Source: Phycisphaerae bacterium (GTDB lineage: Bacteria; Planctomycetota; Phycisphaerae; FEN-1346; JAACEH01). From it: a stretch of DNA of 64,000 nt. The stretch is from contig JAWLHX010000005.1 in NCBI GenBank assembly GCA_041690105.1, forward strand, positions 1,551 through 65,550. Reading direction: 5' to 3'. Both the position numbers and the translations under genes were made by a program. Of the stretch, positions 1 through 6,886 are shown piece after piece. Below the pieces are notes generated by a model. The model saw only the letters and a list, made by a program, of their open reading frames with translations. It made no database searches and was not told the DNA's origin. Numbering within the stretch: the first letter of the stretch is position 1; each line of letters begins with the position of its first letter.

Positions 1-519
1 ATTGCGATATGCTGCGATGGCCGCGGGCAAGGCTTCCTTGGCCCTTGGGGCCATGGCTTCGTTGCGGGCCAGGCGCAAGACTTCGGCGTGCAGAATGGCG
101 TCGGGCGACTTCTGGCCGGCAATAACGCCCAGCACGGCCAGTTGCACCTCTGGCCGATCGGTTCGCTGCAGGGCGGCCGAGAGAATGGCCCGGGCGGCAT
201 CGCTGTTGCGATTCATAAGCAGCACGGCCGCATCCTGCCGATTAGCCGGCGTCGATTCGGGCCGCGTAAGTATGGCCTCAACCAGGCGCAATTCGTTTTC
301 GGCACTGTCGTCAGTAACTGGTTCCTGGGTGGGAGTTTCAACCGGGACTTCGGTGGAATTGTCGGCCGCAGCACTGCCAGCGGGCTCCGATGGCGCCCCA
401 ACCTGCTCCGACGGCACCACAACCTGCCCCGAAAGCGGCACCGCGGCACAGCCAAAGAGCACCATCAGGGTGAACGATGCCAGAGCGACCAGATTGAATG
501 TTCTGTGCTTACTCAGCAT
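1..519 (-). CDS. Putative lipoprotein with helical (HEAT-like) region; runs off the window edge
   Basis: Not in the ORF track. Manual translation from ATG at 519: MLSKHRTFNLVALASFTLMVLFGCAAVP...ELRLVEAILTRPESTPANRQDAAVLLMNR..., open to base 1. Lipobox-like LFGC followed by a Pro/Glu/Thr-rich linker. Confidence 0.7.
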   Translation of the reverse strand, partial: MLSKHRTFNLVALASFTLMVLFGCAAVPLSGQVVVPSEQVGAPSEPAGSAAADNSTEVPVETPTQEPVTDDSAENELRLVEAILTRPESTPANRQDAAVLLMNRNSDAARAILSAALQRTDRPEVQLAVLGVIAGQKSPDAILHAEVLRLARNEAMAPRAKEALPAAIAAYRN

Positions 520-670: not shown

Positions 671-2959
671 TTATTCCGCCGGCGGCAACTTCTGCGAGCT
701 GAAGCTGTCCACCTTGACTTCATCGGCATCCGAGCGCGAAACAAGATAATAAAGCAGATCCACCGTCTGTTCGCCCTGCAGGATGACCCGTGGCGGTATC
801 GATTTCTCGAAAACTTCCTGGCCTTTCAGCCTGACCGAGAGCGGCGCTATGGCGTTGGCCGACTTACCCTCGGCCAGCACCTTTACCTGTCCCGGCTCCA
901 CGTAATAATAGCTACGATCATCGGACTTCGAAGGGCTAAATAATAATTGCACTAAAACGTATTGGCCGCCAACGCCGGCATCGGTCTTCATTACGCGGGT
1001 GCCAATGGTGACCTCCGGCAGAACCTGCACTTTGCTGACCCGCAGCCCGTGGCTGCTGGAGCGGGCCTGGCGACTATCGAGCTGCAGATACCACTCGGGA
1101 GCGGTCTCGGGCAGGTCGCCGGCCAAGGACCAGGCAACATCGCGGAAGTTCGTGCCGCGCTTCACCTGAGACACAAACTGTACCTTGGCGGTAGCCCCCT
1201 TTGTAAGCACCATCTGCCAGTCGGCGCTCAGCAGGGCCATCTTCTTCTTGTCCTTATCGTGCTTTGCTTCAATCTCCTGGCCGAGCCGGACAAATTGCCG
1301 TTTCGATGAATCGTGGTAGACGTAACCTTTAAGGGCGTCAGCATCGTCGGTAAAGTCAAGCTCATCGTTGAGCAACGACACCCGGAAGGCATCGCCCTGC
1401 CCCTTGGCTTTCAGTTGCAGATCTTCGCTTCCAAGGCCTATCGGAGCGTTACCCTTATTCTCAATTCGGGCTTCGACTACGAAGAATTCCTCGTCGCTCC
1501 CGCTGCTCAGGTCAAACTGATTCAGCCGCGGCATGCGGTCGGCCTTATCCACCGTCAGCTCGAGCTGGCCAAGCGTCGCCACGGCCTTGGGCATAAGCCC
1601 CTGCGGCGGCTCGCTGGAGGAGGTCCCCGCGACTACATCGTCCGAAGAGTAGCGCAAGGCATAATTCCACGGTTGGCTCAGGTGCGGAACCAGAAAAACC
1701 AGCGTCGTCCGGACCTGCGAGCGATCGCTCGCCGGAGGGAAGCGCCAGACGGCGCTGTCGGCAACAAAAAACAGCTCTTGACCATCGCGCAGCCCGCTGA
1801 AATCCTCCGGGCGCTGGTACGTAACCGAACCATCAATAACATGCTCGCCCACCGTCGGCGGAAGCTGGAAGCGGCTCTCCAAGTTGCTCCACGTGCCAAC
1901 GCCAATCAGCTTGGGCCGGGCATGTTCGAAGAAGTACCTTTGCTCGCGGCGGGCGGTCGGCTCGGGTTTCACCAGGTTGGACGACAGCTTGAAGTTGGCA
2001 AGTGGCACATCCATCGAAGCATCCGTCTCAGGCTGGAAGGTGACATCGACCAGCAGCAAATCGTGCCGCTCGGCCTCTGCCTCCATCTGCCCGCCACTCT
2101 GGTCCAGCCATTTCAGGTCGGCAGGCGATATGGCCGTACGCTCGTCGCGATCGATTTGCGGCGAGATAATCGCCGGCACAATCCGTGCACCTTCAATTTT
2201 AATTCGCAGGTTATCCTGAACCGACTGGCCGGCAATAAGGGCGGCGCCGATTCCGGCGCTGGAGGACATCGGCCCCTTGCCCTCCTGATCCAGGAAGGTC
2301 AGGGCAACGCGACGCCGGAAGTACTCGTAAAGAATGTCGTCACTGTTGCGGCCGCGATAGGGGTTGTCTCGCACGGCAGTGCTGGCAACGGCCAGAGCAT
2401 TTTCGGGGTAACGGTTCGGGTAGCGCCCCGGCAGGCCGGCTTCGTCGGTCGACAAGGCTCCACGGCTGAGCCCGCTGTACATGCCGAGCACCGCATCATC
2501 GTACCGCAGGCTCATGCGCTGCTCGCGGTCGCGACCATCGAAGCCGAATGGCTGATAACCCAGGACCGAGGGCGGCATGGGCATCATCTGGGCCACGACA
2601 ACCACAACGCCGGCGGCAAAATATCCGGCTACCACACCACCAACCGCCCCCAACGCTCCATCAATAAGGTCCGGCAGACTCATCCGGCGACGCAGTTGGG
2701 CGCCCATCAGCAGTCGTAGCAACCCCAAGCTTACGATAAACAGAATAAGCAAAGCCAGCCCATCGGCCCAATAGTACGATTTGGACACTGGGTCGGGGTT
2801 GCTGACCATCAGCCTGGATACCGGCAGATAAAAGCCGAAGGCCACTGCCCCGCTGACAATCACCGTCCACAGGCTCATTACGCCTGCCCAGGCGCCAGCT
2901 TTGAAATGAAGCAGAGCGCTGGCCAGCACTATTACTATGGCCAAAATCTCAAGGAACAC
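671..2959 (-). CDS. CvpA (colicin V production)-like membrane domain fused to a large soluble beta-rich region, 762 aa
   Basis: Four N-terminal hydrophobic helices with a CvpA-like pattern (D..LGAVGGVVAGY). About 600 aa soluble C-terminus with DUF4352-like segments (FFVVEARIENKGNAPI; YVLVQLLF). GTG start, TAA at 671. Confidence 0.65.
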   Translation of the reverse strand: MFLEILAIVIVLASALLHFKAGAWAGVMSLWTVIVSGAVAFGFYLPVSRLMVSNPDPVSKSYYWADGLALLILFIVSLGLLRLLMGAQLRRRMSLPDLIDGALGAVGGVVAGYFAAGVVVVVAQMMPMPPSVLGYQPFGFDGRDREQRMSLRYDDAVLGMYSGLSRGALSTDEAGLPGRYPNRYPENALAVASTAVRDNPYRGRNSDDILYEYFRRRVALTFLDQEGKGPMSSSAGIGAALIAGQSVQDNLRIKIEGARIVPAIISPQIDRDERTAISPADLKWLDQSGGQMEAEAERHDLLLVDVTFQPETDASMDVPLANFKLSSNLVKPEPTARREQRYFFEHARPKLIGVGTWSNLESRFQLPPTVGEHVIDGSVTYQRPEDFSGLRDGQELFFVADSAVWRFPPASDRSQVRTTLVFLVPHLSQPWNYALRYSSDDVVAGTSSSEPPQGLMPKAVATLGQLELTVDKADRMPRLNQFDLSSGSDEEFFVVEARIENKGNAPIGLGSEDLQLKAKGQGDAFRVSLLNDELDFTDDADALKGYVYHDSSKRQFVRLGQEIEAKHDKDKKKMALLSADWQMVLTKGATAKVQFVSQVKRGTNFRDVAWSLAGDLPETAPEWYLQLDSRQARSSSHGLRVSKVQVLPEVTIGTRVMKTDAGVGGQYVLVQLLFSPSKSDDRSYYYVEPGQVKVLAEGKSANAIAPLSVRLKGQEVFEKSIPPRVILQGEQTVDLLYYLVSRSDADEVKVDSFSSQKLPPAE

Positions 2960-2971
2960 GCCGCACCCTCC

Positions 2972-4756
2972 CTACTTTGCCGGCTTCAGCACGCGAAGCA
3001 GTTCTGTCACGCTGGTTTCGCCGCTGACGACTTTTCGCAATCCCTCTTCCTGCAGGAAGTCCTGCCCCTGCTTGCGAAGATGAGAACGTACTTCGGTCAG
3101 CGATTTGCCCGACGACAGTTGACGCCGGGCCTCGTCATCAAAAACAACTACTTCGTAAATGAATGTCCGACCGTGATAGCCTTCGTTGTTGCACAGCGGG
3201 CAGACAATAACCTCGCCCTTTTTGTCCACTGGTCGGCTTTTCGGCTCACGGTACAGGACCTCGACCTGCGAAGCCTGCAGATTGGCCTTGCGCAGAAAAT
3301 CAGGATTCGGACGATAGCCCTCGCGACAACCCGGGCACAGCTTGCGCATCATCCGCTGATTGGTGGCCGCACGAAGCAGGCTTGCTGCACTGCGGACATC
3401 GCCGCTGGCCTGCAGAAACTTTTCGATCGCATCGGCCGCATCGTTGGCGTTAAGTCCGGCAACCATCATCTTGCCTGCCGCCGCCCCGTTTATCAGCACC
3501 TTGGCCGCGGCCGCTTCTTCAAGCGTCTCGAGCATGACCACGTCCGGGTCGGCTCGCAAGGCAGCCTGCATCGTCTGGGCCACAACGTCGCCGCCCTGGC
3601 GACCGGCTTCCAACTGCTGAATGTCGGGGTATTCGATGCTGATTTGCGTCGTCACAGCCATTACGTTCTTACTGAACAGGTCGAACTCGCGCATGGCGGC
3701 GTACATGCTGATGAGCCGCCGGTTGTAATTCGGTGAGCCCATCAGCACCATTCCGCCTTGCGGACTGTTGAGGGCCTCGCGCAGGGCGGCCACCTGCTCC
3801 GGCCGCATACCCGAATCTTCCAGCCTCATCTCAATCAGCTCGCGCGGATGCAGCCGCATCAGCAACTGCTCGCCGCGGACGCTGCCGGCGGCCTCAACCG
3901 TGATGAAGGTGCTGCGTTCGCCTTCCAGCACAATGAGGCGGCCATTCTGCGGCTTTCGATGCTCCTTCACATCCAGATCGGCCAGCCGCTTGAAGAAAGC
4001 CGTCACGCCAGCCGCCTGGGCCGGCTCGACAGTGCCGCCGTCTCGCAGAATACCGTCGCCACGGTAGCGCACCTGCAACTGCTGGCCCTGCGGAATCAGG
4101 TAAAGCTCCTCGGCATCCAGGCGCAGGGCCTCGTGCAGCAAACGTTCTGCCTGCGAAAATTCCGCCTCCTGCTGCTCGTTTTCCGGGCGCAGGCGGATGG
4201 GGAAATCGTTCGTCTTCATGTAAACCAGTTTGAGCTGCTCGGTGAGCTGCGACCTGGCCGCTACATGCACGGCCCGTTCGGCGGCCGACTCACCCTCCTG
4301 CTCGCGACGGAGCAGCCGATTTTTGACCCGTTCGGCATGGGCGGCAGTGAAAATGCGAACCCGGGCCGGCACCAGTGGGTTGCGCCACGAGGCATACCAG
4401 GCCATCACACCGCCCACCATGGCCAAGGCCAGCAGCAGGCCGACAATCAGCCAGGGCACGACCAGCACGATGATCAGGGCCAAGGCCGCCACGGCCAGCA
4501 TGGTCGAAAGCCACTGCACGACATTCTTCTGCAGCAGAACCACGTCGCCCGCCAACCAGTTGCCGGTAGCCCCGACAACCATCATAAGCAGCACCAGGGC
4601 GATTATTTTCCACATGCTCAGTGCTGCGCCCTGGGCCAGGTCTTCCGTTGGCTCGACCGGCGAAGCGGCCGCCATGGCAGCAGGGGCGAAAACTGCCGCC
4701 ACCAAGAGGGCCAAGGTCACCATCAGCAGAACCGATGCAGCGCGACTTCGTATCAT
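2972..4756 (-). CDS. GspE/PilB-like protein with N-terminal TM helices and degenerate ATPase motifs
   Basis: PilB-type segments are recognisable (VRYRGDGIL, EHRKPQNGRL, ALRADPDVVM, QRMMRKLCPGC, CPLCNNEGYHGRTFIYEV, EGLRKVVSGETSVTELLRV). The Walker A position reads GSPNYNRR. Confidence 0.85.
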   Translation of the reverse strand: MIRSRAASVLLMVTLALLVAAVFAPAAMAAASPVEPTEDLAQGAALSMWKIIALVLLMMVVGATGNWLAGDVVLLQKNVVQWLSTMLAVAALALIIVLVVPWLIVGLLLALAMVGGVMAWYASWRNPLVPARVRIFTAAHAERVKNRLLRREQEGESAAERAVHVAARSQLTEQLKLVYMKTNDFPIRLRPENEQQEAEFSQAERLLHEALRLDAEELYLIPQGQQLQVRYRGDGILRDGGTVEPAQAAGVTAFFKRLADLDVKEHRKPQNGRLIVLEGERSTFITVEAAGSVRGEQLLMRLHPRELIEMRLEDSGMRPEQVAALREALNSPQGGMVLMGSPNYNRRLISMYAAMREFDLFSKNVMAVTTQISIEYPDIQQLEAGRQGGDVVAQTMQAALRADPDVVMLETLEEAAAAKVLINGAAAGKMMVAGLNANDAADAIEKFLQASGDVRSAASLLRAATNQRMMRKLCPGCREGYRPNPDFLRKANLQASQVEVLYREPKSRPVDKKGEVIVCPLCNNEGYHGRTFIYEVVVFDDEARRQLSSGKSLTEVRSHLRKQGQDFLQEEGLRKVVSGETSVTELLRVLKPAK

Positions 4757-4782: not shown

Positions 4783-5907
4783 TCAGCGGATAATTCCTTG
4801 CTTCACCGCAATGCCCTTCAGGGCCATTCGCAGCGCGTCCTGGTTGGGCGCATATTCGTAAGCCGTCTGATGATTAATCCAGCCCTTGCTGACAAGTTCG
4901 GCAAAGCTGGTGGTGAAGTCGATCATGCCCTCATTTACTCCGGCGGCTATCACTTCGCCAAGCTTATCGTCTTCGCTGTCGCGAATAAGCCGCCTGGCCA
5001 TGCCGGTGCCCATCAATATTTCCAGGGCCGGAACCCGCTTGGCCTCGGGCATCTCGCTCGGCACCAGAATCTGCACGATAATACCGGCCAGACTGAAGGC
5101 CAGGCTCTGCCGCACAGCCTTCTGCTGATCGTCCGGATAAAGGTCCAGAATGCGACCAATGGCCGACCCGGCGCTGGAGGCGTGCAGGGTGGCAAACACC
5201 AGGTGACCGGTCTCGGCGGCCTGAATTGCCGCCTCGAAGGTATCGCGGTCGCGCATTTCGCCAATCAGCACAACGTCGGGGTCCTCGCGCATCAGGTACT
5301 TCAGGGCCAACTCCATGCTCTCGACATCGGTACCGACCTCGCGCTGGCTGACAAAGGCCCGCTTGTCCTCGTAGAGGAATTCGATCGGATCCTCGATCGT
5401 CACAATGTGGCACGAGCGAGTCTGGTTGATGTGTTCCAGCATACTGGCGATACTGGTGCTTTTGCCGCTGCCCGTCTGGCCGGCAAAAATTATCAGCCCC
5501 TGGTGCATTTTGGCAAGCCTCTGCAGCGGGGCCTCGGGCAGATGCAGCTCGGAAAATGTGGGTATGCGACGTTCGACCCGGCGGCAACTGACGCTGGTGA
5601 AGCCGCGTTGCCGGAATACGTTGATGCGGAAGCGGTCGCCGTTTTCGGCCGTGTGAGCAAAATCGGTGCTGCCGATGCGCTCGTAGTCGGACTTCAGGCG
5701 GTCATCCATGACGGCCAGCACAAGTTGCTCGATCTCCGGGCTTTCGAGAGCCCGCACGCTTGTCTGCTTAATCTGCCCCTCGACCCTCAGGGCCGGAGCC
5801 ATGCCATGCTTCAGATGCAGATCGCTGGCCTTGAATTGCACGGCTATGCTGAGCAGGCGATCAATCGTCAACTCGACCGAGCGACCGTTAATCTCCACCT
5901 GCACCAT
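4783..5907 (-). CDS. pilT: PilT/PilU-family type IV pilus retraction ATPase
   Basis: ASDLHLK, Walker A GQTGSGKST, TIEDPIEF, Walker B DPDVVLIGEMRD, His box GHLVFATLH. Start reassigned to ATG 5907 because the longer ORF overlaps hisF. Confidence 0.92.
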   Translation of the reverse strand: MVQVEINGRSVELTIDRLLSIAVQFKASDLHLKHGMAPALRVEGQIKQTSVRALESPEIEQLVLAVMDDRLKSDYERIGSTDFAHTAENGDRFRINVFRQRGFTSVSCRRVERRIPTFSELHLPEAPLQRLAKMHQGLIIFAGQTGSGKSTSIASMLEHINQTRSCHIVTIEDPIEFLYEDKRAFVSQREVGTDVESMELALKYLMREDPDVVLIGEMRDRDTFEAAIQAAETGHLVFATLHASSAGSAIGRILDLYPDDQQKAVRQSLAFSLAGIIVQILVPSEMPEAKRVPALEILMGTGMARRLIRDSEDDKLGEVIAAGVNEGMIDFTTSFAELVSKGWINHQTAYEYAPNQDALRMALKGIAVKQGIIR

Positions 5908-5962: not shown

Positions 5963-6742
5963 CTAGACCGCCTCCCGGTGTCGCACCGGAACTCCGCGGC
6001 CCTGAAGATAACCTTTGACCTCGGCAATGCTGAACTGCCGGTAATGGAAAATGCTGGCCGCCAGGGCGGCATCGGCCCCGCCCTCAACCAGCGCTGCCCG
6101 CATGTGCTCCGGACTGCCACAACCGCCGCTGGCAATAACCGGCACGCTTACGGCCTCGGCCACTGCCCGGGTCATTTCAAGATCGTAGCCATCCTGCGTG
6201 CCGTCGGCATCCATGCTTGTCAGCAGAATTTCGCCCGCCCCAAGGGCAACCACCTGCTCGGCCCAGCTTACGGCCTCCAAGCCGGTCGGCAGACGCCCGC
6301 CGTCAATATGAACTTCCCAGAAGTCGCGGCCCTCGCGCTGCACCCGTTTCGGATCGATTGCCACCACTATGCACTGCGACCCGAACCGGCTGGCAGCCTG
6401 GCGAACGAAATCCGGATTGCGCACGGCCGGCGAATTGATTGAAACCTTATCGGCACCGGCCTTCAGAATTTCGCGAATGTCGTCCAGCGTCCTTATGCCG
6501 CCGCCAACCGTCAGCGGCATGAAGCATCGATCGGCCGTACGGCGGACCACATCCAGTATAATGGGCCGCTTCTCGTGGCTTGCGGTAATGTCCAGAAAAA
6601 CAAGCTCGTCGGCCTCTTCCTGCTCGTAACGCTCGGCCACCTCGACGGGGTCACCGGCGTCGCGCAACTCAAGGAATCGCGTCCCTTTAACGACGCGGCC
6701 TTCCTTGATGTCCAGACAGGGTATTATCCGCCTCTTGAGCAT
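5963..6742 (-). CDS. hisF: Imidazole glycerol phosphate synthase cyclase subunit
   Basis: [67 protein letters not shown]. Confidence 0.98.
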
Positions 6743-6886
6743 TAAGACATTCCCGAAAAGAGTCGATTATATCTGTCGCAAAAGGGATTGCAAGCTTCCG
6801 GCACGGCAAAGACGGCCCTCGGGTGATATTATTCCTGCCGCGACACATGTCCGCCGCGCCACCCGGGGCCCAGCGGCCACCGCTTT

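What the first reader, a model, noticed from the sequence alone, without database searches (positions are those of the whole stretch)
2972..4756. Membrane-anchored PilB-like pseudo-ATPase with every catalytic motif degenerate but the Zn site kept
Seen in sequence: the PilB/GspE scaffold is intact, but the Walker A position reads GSPNYNRR (family GPTGSGKT), Walker B reads DPDVVMLETLEE (family DPDxxxxGExRD), and the His box reads GKMMVAGLNAND (family GHLVxSTLHTND). CPGC/CPLC is retained, and a signal-like segment plus about three TM helices precede the core. Established: PilB/GspE are soluble hexameric ATPases that need these motifs. Inference: this is a tethered, catalytically dead scaffold or regulator, possibly forming mixed hexamers with or recruiting the adjacent intact PilT. 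The 594-aa frame has no lesions, which argues against simple decay.
Basis: partly seen in the sequence, partly recalled or inferred. Interest (0 to 1): 0.72.

Follow-up and report, generated by a model that had tools for sequence, protein, structure and literature searches.

The report
Membrane-anchored dead PilB-like protein beside PilT
This gene encodes a membrane-anchored copy of the pilus-assembly motor PilB that has lost every ATP-handling residue yet is kept by selection, between a working PilT motor gene and a CvpA-type membrane-protein gene, in an undescribed gene module found across Planctomycetota; Planctomycetaceae carry a version of the module with all motifs intact.

Summary
A lesion-free 594-aa ORF lies on the minus strand at 2972-4756. 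It has a signal-like segment, three TM helices and a full-length PilB/GspE core. Walker A Lys, Asp-box Glu, catalytic Glu and both His-box His are replaced. The four zinc cysteines are kept.

It is not decay. dN/dS is 0.14-0.35 in ten genome pairs, between the values for the neighbouring pilT and cvpA. At least 118 cluster representatives share the TM anchor and lack the Walker A lysine.

The gene order hisF - pilT - TM-PilB-like - cvpA recurs in Phycisphaerae and Pirellulales. pilT lies upstream in 24 of 26 informative species loci, and cvpA downstream in 29 of 29.

A point absent from the earlier-note summaries I saw: about 70 Planctomycetaceae species (Schlesneria, Gimesia) carry a homologous TM-anchored protein with all motifs intact. 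It is always followed by cvpA and sometimes preceded by hisF-pilT. A rooted tree makes the degenerate proteins one derived clade, in which the Walker A lysine was lost at least three times.

The window's protein is the most degenerate form. It also lost P-loop Gly6 and Thr8 and the first Asp-box Glu.

My best reading is a non-catalytic membrane ring that links PilT to the CvpA protein. I found no description in the literature.

The parts
2972..4756 (-). Gene for the membrane-anchored PilB/GspE-like pseudo-ATPase (594 aa, P0001)
   Evidence: ORF list and translation. Pfam T2SSE E 5e-52. PDB and Foldseek matches to PilF, PilB and GspE.
4664..4756 (-). Signal-peptide-like N-terminus (residues 1-31, ...AAMA/AAS, an AxA-type site)
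   Evidence: Hydropathy. AF2 helix 2-29. AxA-like sites recur at this position in all family members. Cleavage is inferred.
4385..4615 (-). Three TM helices (residues 48-70, 81-99, 103-124), with the GNWxxxD motif (invariant D71) and invariant W82, P101, G106 and Y121
   Evidence: The anchor aligns with that of the motif-intact P0062.
4148..4384 (-). Juxtamembrane cytoplasmic linker (residues 125-203). It starts with the conserved WRNxxVP motif (W124 is the last TM3 residue) and replaces the N1D/T2SSE_N domain of soluble PilB/GspE
   Evidence: R125 and N126 are invariant. There is no T2SSE_N hit. pLDDT is low at 151-168.
2993..4147 (-). PilB/GspE-type N2D + CTD core (residues 204-588)
   Evidence: Pfam PF00437, profile 13-370/370. 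Foldseek TM-score 0.88 to 5tsh_E and 5zfr_B.
3713..3739 (-). Walker A remnant GSPNYNRRL (Lys becomes R347, Gly6 becomes R346, Thr8 becomes L348)
   Evidence: Alignment to PilF. Column statistics. Coordinates.
3632..3658 (-). Asp-box remnant AVTTQISIE (first Glu becomes T369; the Mg-binding Glu becomes S373)
   Evidence: Role of the Asp-box Glu: PMC5424180.
3515..3550 (-). Walker B remnant DPDVVMLETLEE (DPD kept; the catalytic Glu position is T411; the pore-loop Glu position is Ala)
3440..3475 (-). His-box remnant GKMMVAGLNAND (His become K429 and N436)
3191..3337 (-). Tetracysteine zinc module (CPGC 474-477 ... CPLC 519-522) with the highly conserved YRPNPxFLRKANL insert
   Evidence: The four Cys are invariant in 19 sequences and 99-100% conserved in 118 degenerate representatives.
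4783..5907 (-). pilT-like gene (374 aa from MVQVEING), all catalytic motifs intact; its stop is 26 nt before the pseudo-PilB start
   Evidence: TIGR01420, 385 bits against a cut-off of 319. Motif alignment. Start coordinate.
671..2959 (-). CvpA-domain membrane protein (762 aa): four N-terminal TM helices (Colicin_V) plus a region of about 630 aa of beta-sandwich domains (DUF4352). It starts 12 nt after the pseudo-PilB stop
   Evidence: Pfam. A low-confidence AF2 model. SD-like GGGAGGG before the GTG start.
1..519 (-). Start of a lipoprotein gene (signal ending LFGC) that runs off the window. Its counterparts in L001, L003 and L007-L009 are HEAT-repeat proteins of 810-821 aa
   Evidence: Translation. 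Pfam HEAT_2 in L001 and L003. Synteny.
5963..6742 (-). hisF, the conserved upstream neighbour of the module
   Evidence: blastp synteny map. Pfam His_biosynth in related loci.
6766..6793 (-). Promoter-like site (TTGCAA-16-TATAAT, 10 of 12) upstream of hisF. It is a candidate start of a hisF-pilT-pseudoPilB-cvpA transcript
   Evidence: Consensus scan only. No convincing minus-strand terminator was found between the genes.

Best explanation
The gene encodes a non-catalytic, membrane-embedded descendant of a PilB/GspE-type motor ATPase.

Shown:
- It keeps the N2D+CTD fold, the zinc module and a conserved three-helix anchor.
- It lacks every residue that McCallum et al. found universally conserved for ATP handling in this ATPase family.
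- It evolves under purifying selection.
- It belongs to a Planctomycetota-wide family that is always followed by a CvpA-family membrane-protein gene and, in the degenerate lineages, is nearly always preceded by an intact pilT.
- A homologous TM-anchored protein with all motifs intact sits in the same gene order in Planctomycetaceae.
- The degenerate proteins form a derived clade. The catalytic Glu and the His box are already replaced in most of its early-branching, Lys-retaining members, and the Walker A Lys was lost at least three separate times.

Inferred: the protein still assembles as a PilB-like ring held at the inner membrane. There it contacts the four-helix CvpA domain of the next gene product through its anchor and its zinc/C-terminal face. 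It serves as the dock, or stator, through which the PilT hexamer acts on that membrane protein; PilT is the only ATP-hydrolysing part left. This resembles the way an ATPase-dead PilT still lets PilU drive pilus retraction.

In the window's own sub-lineage (with P0004) even the P-loop glycine and threonine and the first Asp-box Glu are gone. Residual nucleotide binding, which is plausible for most degenerate members, is therefore unlikely here.
For: - Motif loss with the fold kept.
- Roles of the lost residues: PMC5424180.
- Family-wide conservation of the anchor and of the loss.
- Purifying selection: pseudo-PilB dN/dS is 0.14-0.35 in ten pairs, against pilT 0.10-0.22 and cvpA 0.15-0.42. For the window against its closest relative it is 0.23.
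- Synteny: pilT immediately upstream in 24 of 26 informative GTDB species loci; cvpA downstream in 29 of 29. The same order holds in six further loci.
- Tight spacing of 26 and 12 nt, with SD-like sites.
- Motif-intact counterpart: P0062 aligns over 554 residues including the anchor (30% identity, E 8e-79). In about 70 Planctomycetaceae loci all motifs are intact, cvpA follows in 71 of 71, and hisF-pilT lies directly upstream in 9 of 58 informative loci, plus two frameshifted assemblies.
- Rooted IQ-TREE: 33 degenerate proteins form one clade (support 92/78). Lys-retaining but otherwise degenerate members branch at the base of each sub-clade, and starred branches force at least three Lys losses.
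- Precedent for a dead ring bridging an active paralogue: PMC6821130 and PMC6762196.
Against: - No physical interaction, oligomeric state or membrane topology was measured or modelled. Multimer prediction was not possible with the tools.
- The function of CvpA-family proteins is unknown, so the output of the module is undefined.
- Two degenerate loci (L022, L025) lack an adjacent pilT. Most motif-intact loci also lack one. PilT may therefore be a looser partner than CvpA.
A role inside an ordinary type IV pilus machine is not excluded.
- Whether the intact and degenerate versions are orthologues or old paralogues is unresolved.
- The TM calls rest on hydropathy and AF2 only.
Confidence: 0.5

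Rival explanations
1. Accessory part of an ordinary type IV pilus or T2SS-like machine encoded elsewhere. The dead ring anchors or regulates PilT at a PilC/PilM-type platform, for example as a retraction brake or localisation factor. The CvpA linkage is secondary.
For: PilT is a pilus-retraction ATPase by family (TIGR01420). Planctomycetes encode many pilin-like proteins, and a related TM-anchored protein (P0029) sits next to a DUF1559/N_methyl pseudopilin gene.
Against: No other T2SSE gene lies in the 64-kb window. No T2SSF or N_methyl gene appears in the Pfam-listed gene calls around the module in L001-L005 and L036. The cvpA linkage is 100% over about 100 loci. This genome could not be searched for pilus genes.
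Confidence: 0.2
2. Mixed heterohexamer, the first reader's idea: pseudo-PilB and PilT subunits alternate in one ring, so the dead subunits tether an otherwise soluble motor.
For: The genes are adjacent and probably co-translated, 26 nt apart. The family largely keeps the N2D Gln/Gly and the first Arg of the RxPQxGR motif, which lies in the domain that carries the arginine fingers of these ATPases (PMC5424180).
Against: PilT and PilU, the only studied co-acting pair of this family, form independent homohexamers (PMC6821130). The PilB-type and PilT-type cores are only about 14-15% identical in structure alignments. PilT is not adjacent in most motif-intact loci or in two degenerate loci.
Confidence: 0.1
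3. Nucleotide-binding (non-hydrolysing) sensor or switch. The ring binds ATP, ADP or another phosphate ligand and gates the CvpA-type protein or PilT according to energy state.
For: In 118 degenerate representatives, P-loop Gly6 (97%), Thr/Ser8 (90%) and the first Asp-box Glu (93%) stay conserved although the Lys is gone. This pattern is usual for binding without hydrolysis.
Against: In this window's protein and in P0004 exactly those residues are also replaced (R346, L348, T369), yet dN/dS is unchanged at 0.23. Whatever keeps this lineage's gene under selection does not need them.
Confidence: 0.12
4. Recent lineage-specific decay: a pseudogene in the making, with no function.
For: Syntenic counterparts with intact motifs exist. 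The window's protein is the most degenerate member.
Against: The 594-codon frame is intact. dN/dS is 0.14-0.35 in ten pairs, similar to the neighbours. Fifty-five columns are invariant across 17 proteins down to 29% identity, many of them in the anchor and the zinc module. The degenerate state is shared by at least 118 clusters at 50% identity.
Confidence: 0.02

Closest known systems
PilB / GspE (EpsE) / PilF assembly ATPases of type IV pili and type II secretion (Pfam PF00437; TIGR02538, TIGR02533)
   Same: N2D+CTD fold (TM-score 0.88 to Geobacter PilB), the tetracysteine zinc module, the DPD of Walker B and the C-terminal GxTSxxE helix.
   Different: No Walker A Lys, Asp-box Glu, catalytic Glu or His-box His. 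It scores far below the equivalog cut-offs (207 against 630; 198 against 676). The N1D/T2SSE_N domain is replaced by a signal-like segment and three TM helices. The neighbours are pilT and cvpA, not pilC/gspF or pilins.
Motif-intact TM-anchored PilB-like proteins of Planctomycetaceae (P0062 type; Schlesneria, Gimesia, Planctomicrobium), themselves not described as far as I could find
   Same: Homologous over the whole length, including the anchor motifs (GNWxxxD / ANWIDGD; RNxxVP). They are always followed by a CvpA-family gene, and in some loci preceded by hisF-pilT.
   Different: They keep GPTGAGK, EDPVEY, DPDVVMIGEIRD and GHMVFSTVHAND. Their Pfam T2SSE score is 370-387 bits against 177. Their CvpA partner is short (220-242 aa) against 762 aa here. 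pilT is usually not adjacent.
ATPase-dead PilT supporting PilU-driven pilus retraction (Vibrio cholerae, Acinetobacter baylyi, Pseudomonas aeruginosa)
   Same: A catalytically inactive ring of the PilT-like ATPase family is still required as the link between an active paralogue and the membrane machine (PMC6821130, PMC6762196).
   Different: There the dead ring is mostly an engineered mutant, plus one natural V. cholerae PilT variant. It is soluble, of PilT type, and acts on a pilus through PilC. Here the loss is ancient and fixed, the ring is of PilB type and membrane-anchored, and the partner is CvpA-like.
CvpA family (Pfam PF02674 Colicin_V) and MarP-type fusions
   Same: The downstream gene begins with the four-helix CvpA domain fused to a large non-membrane region, as MarP family proteases do (weak NF033740 hit).
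   Different: There is no protease domain. The fused part is beta-sandwich/DUF4352-like. As far as I could find, no CvpA protein has been linked to a PilT-like ATPase.

Membership tests
PilB/GspE assembly ATPases (PF00437; TIGR02538/TIGR02533) | N2D + CTD RecA-like fold of the PilT-like ATPase family | tested here: met
   Pfam T2SSE 13-370/370, E 5e-52. Foldseek E 1e-34, TM-score 0.85-0.88 to PilF and PilB.
PilB/GspE assembly ATPases (PF00437; TIGR02538/TIGR02533) | Walker A GxxxxGK[ST] | tested here: not met
   SPNYNRRL: Gly1 becomes S, Gly6 becomes R346, Lys becomes R347, Thr becomes L348.
PilB/GspE assembly ATPases (PF00437; TIGR02538/TIGR02533) | Asp-box Glu that coordinates Mg2+ (E357 in Geobacter PilB) | tested here: not met
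   IEDPVE aligns to VTTQIS; the Mg-binding Glu is S373. Role from PMC5424180.
PilB/GspE assembly ATPases (PF00437; TIGR02538/TIGR02533) | Atypical Walker B DPDxxxxGExRD with the catalytic Glu | tested here: not met
   DPDVVMLETLEE: DPD is kept, Gly becomes E410, the catalytic Glu becomes T411 and Arg becomes E413.
PilB/GspE assembly ATPases (PF00437; TIGR02538/TIGR02533) | His box with two histidines | tested here: not met
   GKMMVAGLNAND: K429 and N436.
PilB/GspE assembly ATPases (PF00437; TIGR02538/TIGR02533) | Tetracysteine zinc motif (PilB/GspE clade only) | tested here: met
   C474, C477, C519 and C522 are invariant. Metal binding itself was not tested.
PilB/GspE assembly ATPases (PF00437; TIGR02538/TIGR02533) | Score above the curated equivalog cut-off | tested here: not met
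   TIGR02533: 207 bits against 630. TIGR02538: 198 bits against 676.
PilB/GspE assembly ATPases (PF00437; TIGR02538/TIGR02533) | Soluble protein with N-terminal N1D/T2SSE_N domain(s) | tested here: not met
   No PF05157 hit. The N-terminus is a signal-like segment plus three TM helices.
PilB/GspE assembly ATPases (PF00437; TIGR02538/TIGR02533) | Encoded with a platform protein (PilC/GspF) and pilins or pseudopilins | tested here: inconclusive
   No T2SSF or N_methyl gene appears in the Pfam-listed gene calls of L001-L005 and L036. The window has no second T2SSE gene. The rest of this genome could not be searched.
PilT/PilU retraction ATPases (TIGR01420) | Family score and PilT-type architecture without a zinc module | tested here: not met
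   TIGR01420: 29.7 bits against 319. The zinc module is present. PilT structures align at 14-15% identity only.
TM-anchored PilB-like / CvpA module of Planctomycetota (defined here, not a curated family) | Signal-like segment plus three TM helices with GNWxxxD and RNxxVP motifs ahead of the PilB-like core | tested here: met
TM-anchored PilB-like / CvpA module of Planctomycetota (defined here, not a curated family) | CvpA-family gene immediately downstream on the same strand | tested here: met
   In the window, 671-2959 starts 12 nt after the stop. 29 of 29 degenerate loci and 71 of 71 motif-intact loci show it.
TM-anchored PilB-like / CvpA module of Planctomycetota (defined here, not a curated family) | Intact pilT (and hisF) immediately upstream | tested here: met
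   In the window, 4783-5907 and 5963-6742. 24 of 26 informative degenerate loci show it.
Pseudoenzyme (pseudo-ATPase) in the general sense | Catalytic residues lost, fold kept, sequence under purifying selection | tested here: met
   Absence of ATPase activity itself cannot be tested with these tools.

The most novel reading that the evidence does not exclude
The TM-anchored PilB-like protein, the CvpA-family protein and the module-type PilT form a self-contained, pilus-independent inner-membrane machine that is ancestral to Planctomycetota. Originally it had two antagonistic motors, an anchored PilB-like one and PilT, acting on a CvpA-type platform. In Phycisphaerae, Pirellulales and relatives the anchored motor became a dead stator and PilT alone supplies the force. 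That force is passed to large periplasmic extensions of the CvpA protein and, in this clade, to a HEAT-repeat lipoprotein. This would give the long-uncharacterised CvpA family its first mechanistic partner.
Probability: 0.3. Interest if true: 0.85.

Novelty: new variant of a known kind. Interest (0 to 1): 0.62.

Why it matters
PilB/GspE/PilT motors are textbook soluble hexameric ATPases that act on PilC/GspF platforms. This family is a phylum-wide exception in three ways: the motor carries its own membrane anchor, its partner is a CvpA-family protein instead of a PilC/GspF platform, and in most lineages it has lost catalysis yet remains under selection.

Three things follow.
- It is a natural, ancient case of a dead ring in the PilT-like ATPase family, next to an active paralogue. 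Until now this was seen mainly in engineered PilT mutants.
- It gives the widespread but functionally opaque CvpA family a candidate mechanical partner.
- Motif-intact and motif-dead versions exist in the same gene order, some in cultured genera (Schlesneria, Gimesia). What the ring does with and without ATP hydrolysis can therefore be tested directly by genetics and biochemistry.

Tried and rejected
I could not ask whether this genome holds canonical pilB/pilC/pilin genes or a second, motif-intact paralogue.
- The window's protein is not on record in the contig index. No public sequencing run holds the stretch, so there is no expression evidence.
- Five literature searches found no description: pseudo-ATPase + PilB; Planctomycetes + PilT + CvpA; degenerate Walker + GspE; CvpA + PilT + operon; Planctopirus/Gimesia + PilT/PilB. 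A general CvpA search gave nothing mechanistic.
- The AF2 model of the CvpA-domain protein was too poor (pLDDT 61.5) to justify a fold search, so its periplasmic domains stay unassigned beyond DUF4352.
- In the first, FastTree tree the PilT rows had been filtered out as too gappy, leaving it unrooted. I rebuilt a 55-row IQ-TREE with a PilT outgroup.
- A single origin of the TM anchor is neither shown nor rejected (AU p = 0.42).
- I considered a conserved C-terminal PilT tail as a docking peptide. I dropped it because it is shared by PilTs of both module versions and I had no canonical PilT to compare it with.
- The 'Anaerolineales' and 'Deltaproteobacteria' labels of some MAG records conflict with the content of their loci. 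I did not use them as evidence of spread outside Planctomycetota.
Full report
**What is there.** The finding's coordinates hold a 594-codon ORF on the minus strand (2972-4756). It starts with ATG, has no internal stop, and an SD-like GGGAGA lies about 10 nt upstream. Pfam T2SSE matches residues 204-588 over practically the whole profile (13-370 of 370, E 5e-52). NCBIfam GspE and PilB equivalogs match at 207 and 198 bits, far below their cut-offs of 630 and 676. The best solved relatives by sequence are the Thermus PilF core, Vibrio GspE/EpsE and Geobacter PilB (E 1e-52 to 1e-42). An AlphaFold2 model built on 17 family sequences (pLDDT 79) superposes on PilB 5tsh/5zfr and PilF 5oiu with target TM-scores of 0.85-0.88. 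The PilB/GspE scaffold is therefore intact.

**The motifs.**
- Walker A GPTGSGK[ST] reads SPNYNRRL. Gly1 becomes S341, Gly6 becomes R346, Lys becomes R347 and Thr becomes L348.
- Asp box IEDPVE reads VTTQIS. The first Glu becomes T369 and the Mg-binding Glu becomes S373.
- Walker B DPDxxxxGExRD reads DPDVVMLETLEE. The catalytic Glu position is T411, with a Glu one residue earlier.
- His box GHxxxxTxHxND reads GKMMVAGLNAND. The two His positions are K429 and N436.

McCallum et al. 2017 (PMC5424180) list these residues as conserved throughout the PilT-like ATPase family: Walker A and B, the catalytic Glu, the Asp-box Glu that coordinates Mg2+, and a His-box His that contacts the gamma-phosphate. 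The four zinc cysteines (C474, C477, C519, C522) are kept.

**The anchor.** Hydropathy and the model give an N-terminal signal-like helix with an AxA-type site (residues 1-31) and three TM helices at 48-70, 81-99 and 103-124. A strongly basic juxtamembrane stretch, WRNPLVPARVR, follows. A cleaved signal plus three helices, or four helices uncleaved, both place the ATPase-like domain in the cytoplasm. Topology is inferred, not measured.

**Not decay.** A word-indexed search found 14 proteins of 578-595 aa at 49-69% identity and three more at 29-35%. All share the anchor and all lack the Walker A Lys, the second Asp-box Glu, the catalytic Glu and both His. Across the 17 sequences 55 columns are invariant. 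Many lie in the anchor (D71, W82, P101, G106, Y121, R125, N126) and in the zinc and C-terminal region.

I computed Nei-Gojobori dN/dS for ten genome pairs with unsaturated or moderately saturated dS.

| Gene | dN/dS in the same pairs |
|---|---|
| pseudo-PilB | 0.14-0.35 |
| pilT | 0.10-0.22 |
| cvpA | 0.15-0.42 |
| hisF | 0.06-0.14 |

For the window against its closest relative (L036, 68% aa identity) the pseudo-PilB value is 0.23. The gene is under purifying selection of ordinary strength.

**How large the family is.** A profile search of 1.84 billion cluster representatives gave 44,625 T2SSE-type hits. The top 150 (319 bits or more) are mostly proteins of 540-620 aa matched from about profile position 35 onward, that is, including the anchor.

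I analysed 179 sequences. By hydropathy, 118 have a TM anchor and no Walker A Lys; that position holds L, R, V, M, I, Q or T. Ten have the anchor and the Lys but lack the catalytic Glu and/or a His-box His. Seventeen have all four residues and a hydrophobic segment in the first 200 residues, though some of these are long PilB-type proteins that group with the soluble clade. Thirty-one are soluble canonical PilB.

Within the 118 degenerate representatives the pattern is as follows.

| Residue | Kept in |
|---|---|
| Zinc cysteines | 99-100% |
| P-loop Gly6 | 97% |
| P-loop Thr/Ser8 | 90% |
| First Asp-box Glu | 93% |
| Second Asp-box Glu (Mg) | 19% |
| Catalytic Glu | 11% |
| His-box His | about 0% |

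The window's protein and P0004 have replaced even Gly6, Thr8 and the first Asp-box Glu. This lineage is the most degenerate form. Residual nucleotide binding is plausible for most members but unlikely here.

**Neighbourhood.**
- The gene is preceded (stop-to-start gap 26 nt) by a 374-aa PilT with all motifs intact (TIGR01420, 385 bits against 319).
- It is followed (12 nt, SD-like GGGAGGG) by a 762-aa protein. That protein has four N-terminal helices forming a CvpA/Colicin_V domain, then about 630 aa with a DUF4352 hit and predicted beta-sandwich domains.
- A lipoprotein gene follows and runs off the window. Its counterparts elsewhere are HEAT-repeat proteins of 810-821 aa.
- hisF lies upstream, with a promoter-like site before it.
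- The order hisF - pilT - pseudo-PilB - cvpA recurs in six loci fetched by protein identity and in 29 GTDB species-representative loci from Phycisphaerae, Pirellulales and unclassified Planctomycetota.
- pilT is immediately upstream in 24 of 26 informative loci. L022 and L025 lack it. cvpA is downstream in 29 of 29.
- There is no second T2SSE gene in the 64-kb window. No T2SSF or pilin-type gene appears in the Pfam-listed gene calls around the module in six loci.

**A motif-intact version of the same module.**
- One truncated locus (L029, Planctomycetaceae) showed an intact Walker B and His box ahead of a cvpA gene. It is 73% identical to P0062, a 620-aa anchored protein with all motifs.
- P0062 aligns with the window's protein over 554 residues, including the anchor: GNWLAGD against ANWIDGD, and WRNPLVP against ERNQRVP (30% identity, E 8e-79). 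A soluble PilB aligns only over the core.
- A scan of GTDB genomes with P0062 returned about 70 Planctomycetaceae species, among them Schlesneria (including a complete genome), Gimesia, Planctomicrobium and Planctomyces.
- In all of them the motifs are canonical: GPTGAGK, EDPVEY, DPDVVMIGEIRD, GHMVFSTVHAND. Pfam T2SSE scores 370-387 bits.
- A 220-242-aa CvpA-family gene follows in 71 of 71 loci. hisF-pilT lies directly upstream in 9 of 58 informative loci, plus two frameshifted long-read assemblies.
- The core pair is therefore anchored PilB-like protein plus CvpA. Adjacency of pilT is common where the anchored protein is dead (24 of 26) and uncommon where it is intact. This contrast is not corrected for phylogeny.

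**Order of events.** An IQ-TREE (LG+C20 PMSF) of 52 cores rooted on three module PilTs gave these results.
- All degenerate proteins fall in one clade of 33 (support 92/78).
- Members that keep the Lys but are otherwise degenerate branch at the base of each of its three sub-clades.
- Starred branches force at least three independent losses of the Lys.
- The window's protein sits in a 7-row clade (100/100), inside a 10-row clade (99/98).
- Motif-intact anchored proteins are unresolved near the base, next to a well-supported soluble PilB clade (99/100).
- A single origin of the anchor is not rejected (AU p = 0.42), but it is not shown either.

Catalytic decay therefore looks stepwise. The catalytic Glu and the His box are already replaced in most of the early-branching members that still keep the Lys, and the Lys was lost later, repeatedly. 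The anchor is shared with the motif-intact proteins, so it probably predates the decay.

**Mechanism.** The facts above are shown. What follows is inferred. The protein still forms a PilB-like ring at the inner membrane. It contacts the CvpA domain through its conserved anchor and its zinc/C-terminal face. It acts as the dock through which the PilT hexamer works on that membrane protein. The closest experimental precedent is PilT/PilU. Walker-mutant PilT still supports PilU-driven retraction, PilU does nothing without PilT, and the two form separate homohexamers that interact (PMC6821130, PMC6762196). What the module moves or senses is unknown, because the CvpA family has no established mechanism.

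**Known or new.** Five literature searches gave no description of an anchored or degenerate PilB/GspE paralogue, or of a PilT-CvpA link. Earlier AI notes of this scan on other genomes describe the same dead trio. They agree with my results but are not independent evidence. None of the summaries I saw mentions the motif-intact Planctomycetaceae counterpart or the stepwise loss. I class this as a new variant of a known kind: a PilB/GspE-derived pseudo-ATPase in an undescribed module.

**Caveats.** TM calls rest on Kyte-Doolittle windows and AF2. The representative library is clustered at 50% identity and carries no taxonomy. Several MAG record titles ('Anaerolineales', 'Deltaproteobacteria') conflict with the clearly planctomycete-like content of their loci.

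Noticed in passing
window 5963-6742 (-), and L001, L003, L004, L007-L035, L084-L093: hisF is the immediate upstream neighbour of the module's pilT in nearly all loci, from Phycisphaerae to Pirellulales and some Planctomycetaceae. This is unusually stable linkage between a histidine-biosynthesis gene and a motor ATPase gene. A promoter-like site (10 of 12) lies before hisF at 6766-6793.
   Followed up: partly
window 1-519 (-); L001 12229-14661; L003 11831-14296: In the window's near clade only, the cvpA gene is followed by a lipoprotein (signal ending LFGC) of 810-821 aa with HEAT repeats. More distant module loci lack it. The CvpA protein also varies greatly in size: about 220-242 aa in Planctomycetaceae, 440 aa in the L004 clade, and 609-793 aa here.
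   Followed up: partly
P0035 (624 aa): A protein with both PF00437 (T2SSE) and PF00482 (T2SSF) hits, all ATPase motifs and a hydrophobic segment. It appears to be a fusion of a GspE/PilB-type ATPase with its platform protein.
   Followed up: no
L006 8001-9833 (P0029) and neighbours: A TM-anchored PilB-like protein that keeps the Walker A Lys and the catalytic Glu but has Gln for the first His-box His. It is not next to pilT or cvpA. It sits beside a 261-aa protein with no Pfam hit and a DUF1559/N_methyl pseudopilin gene, so it may be a different use of the anchored ATPase.
   Followed up: partly
L007, L010-L012, L014, L019, L021, L023, L024, L032, L033, L075: The record titles call these MAGs 'uncultured Anaerolineales/Anaerolineaceae' or 'Deltaproteobacteria'. 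Their hisF, pilT and pseudo-PilB genes are 57-84% identical to those of MAGs labelled Phycisphaerae or Planctomycetota, so the labels look wrong.
   Followed up: no
L104, L105: In two long-read MAG assemblies the pilT and anchored-PilB genes are split into several frames. These are probably homopolymer sequencing errors and not pseudogenes.
   Followed up: no
L022, L025: Two Phycisphaerae loci have the dead PilB-like gene and cvpA but no pilT upstream. In L025 hisF directly abuts the pseudo-PilB gene.
   Followed up: partly
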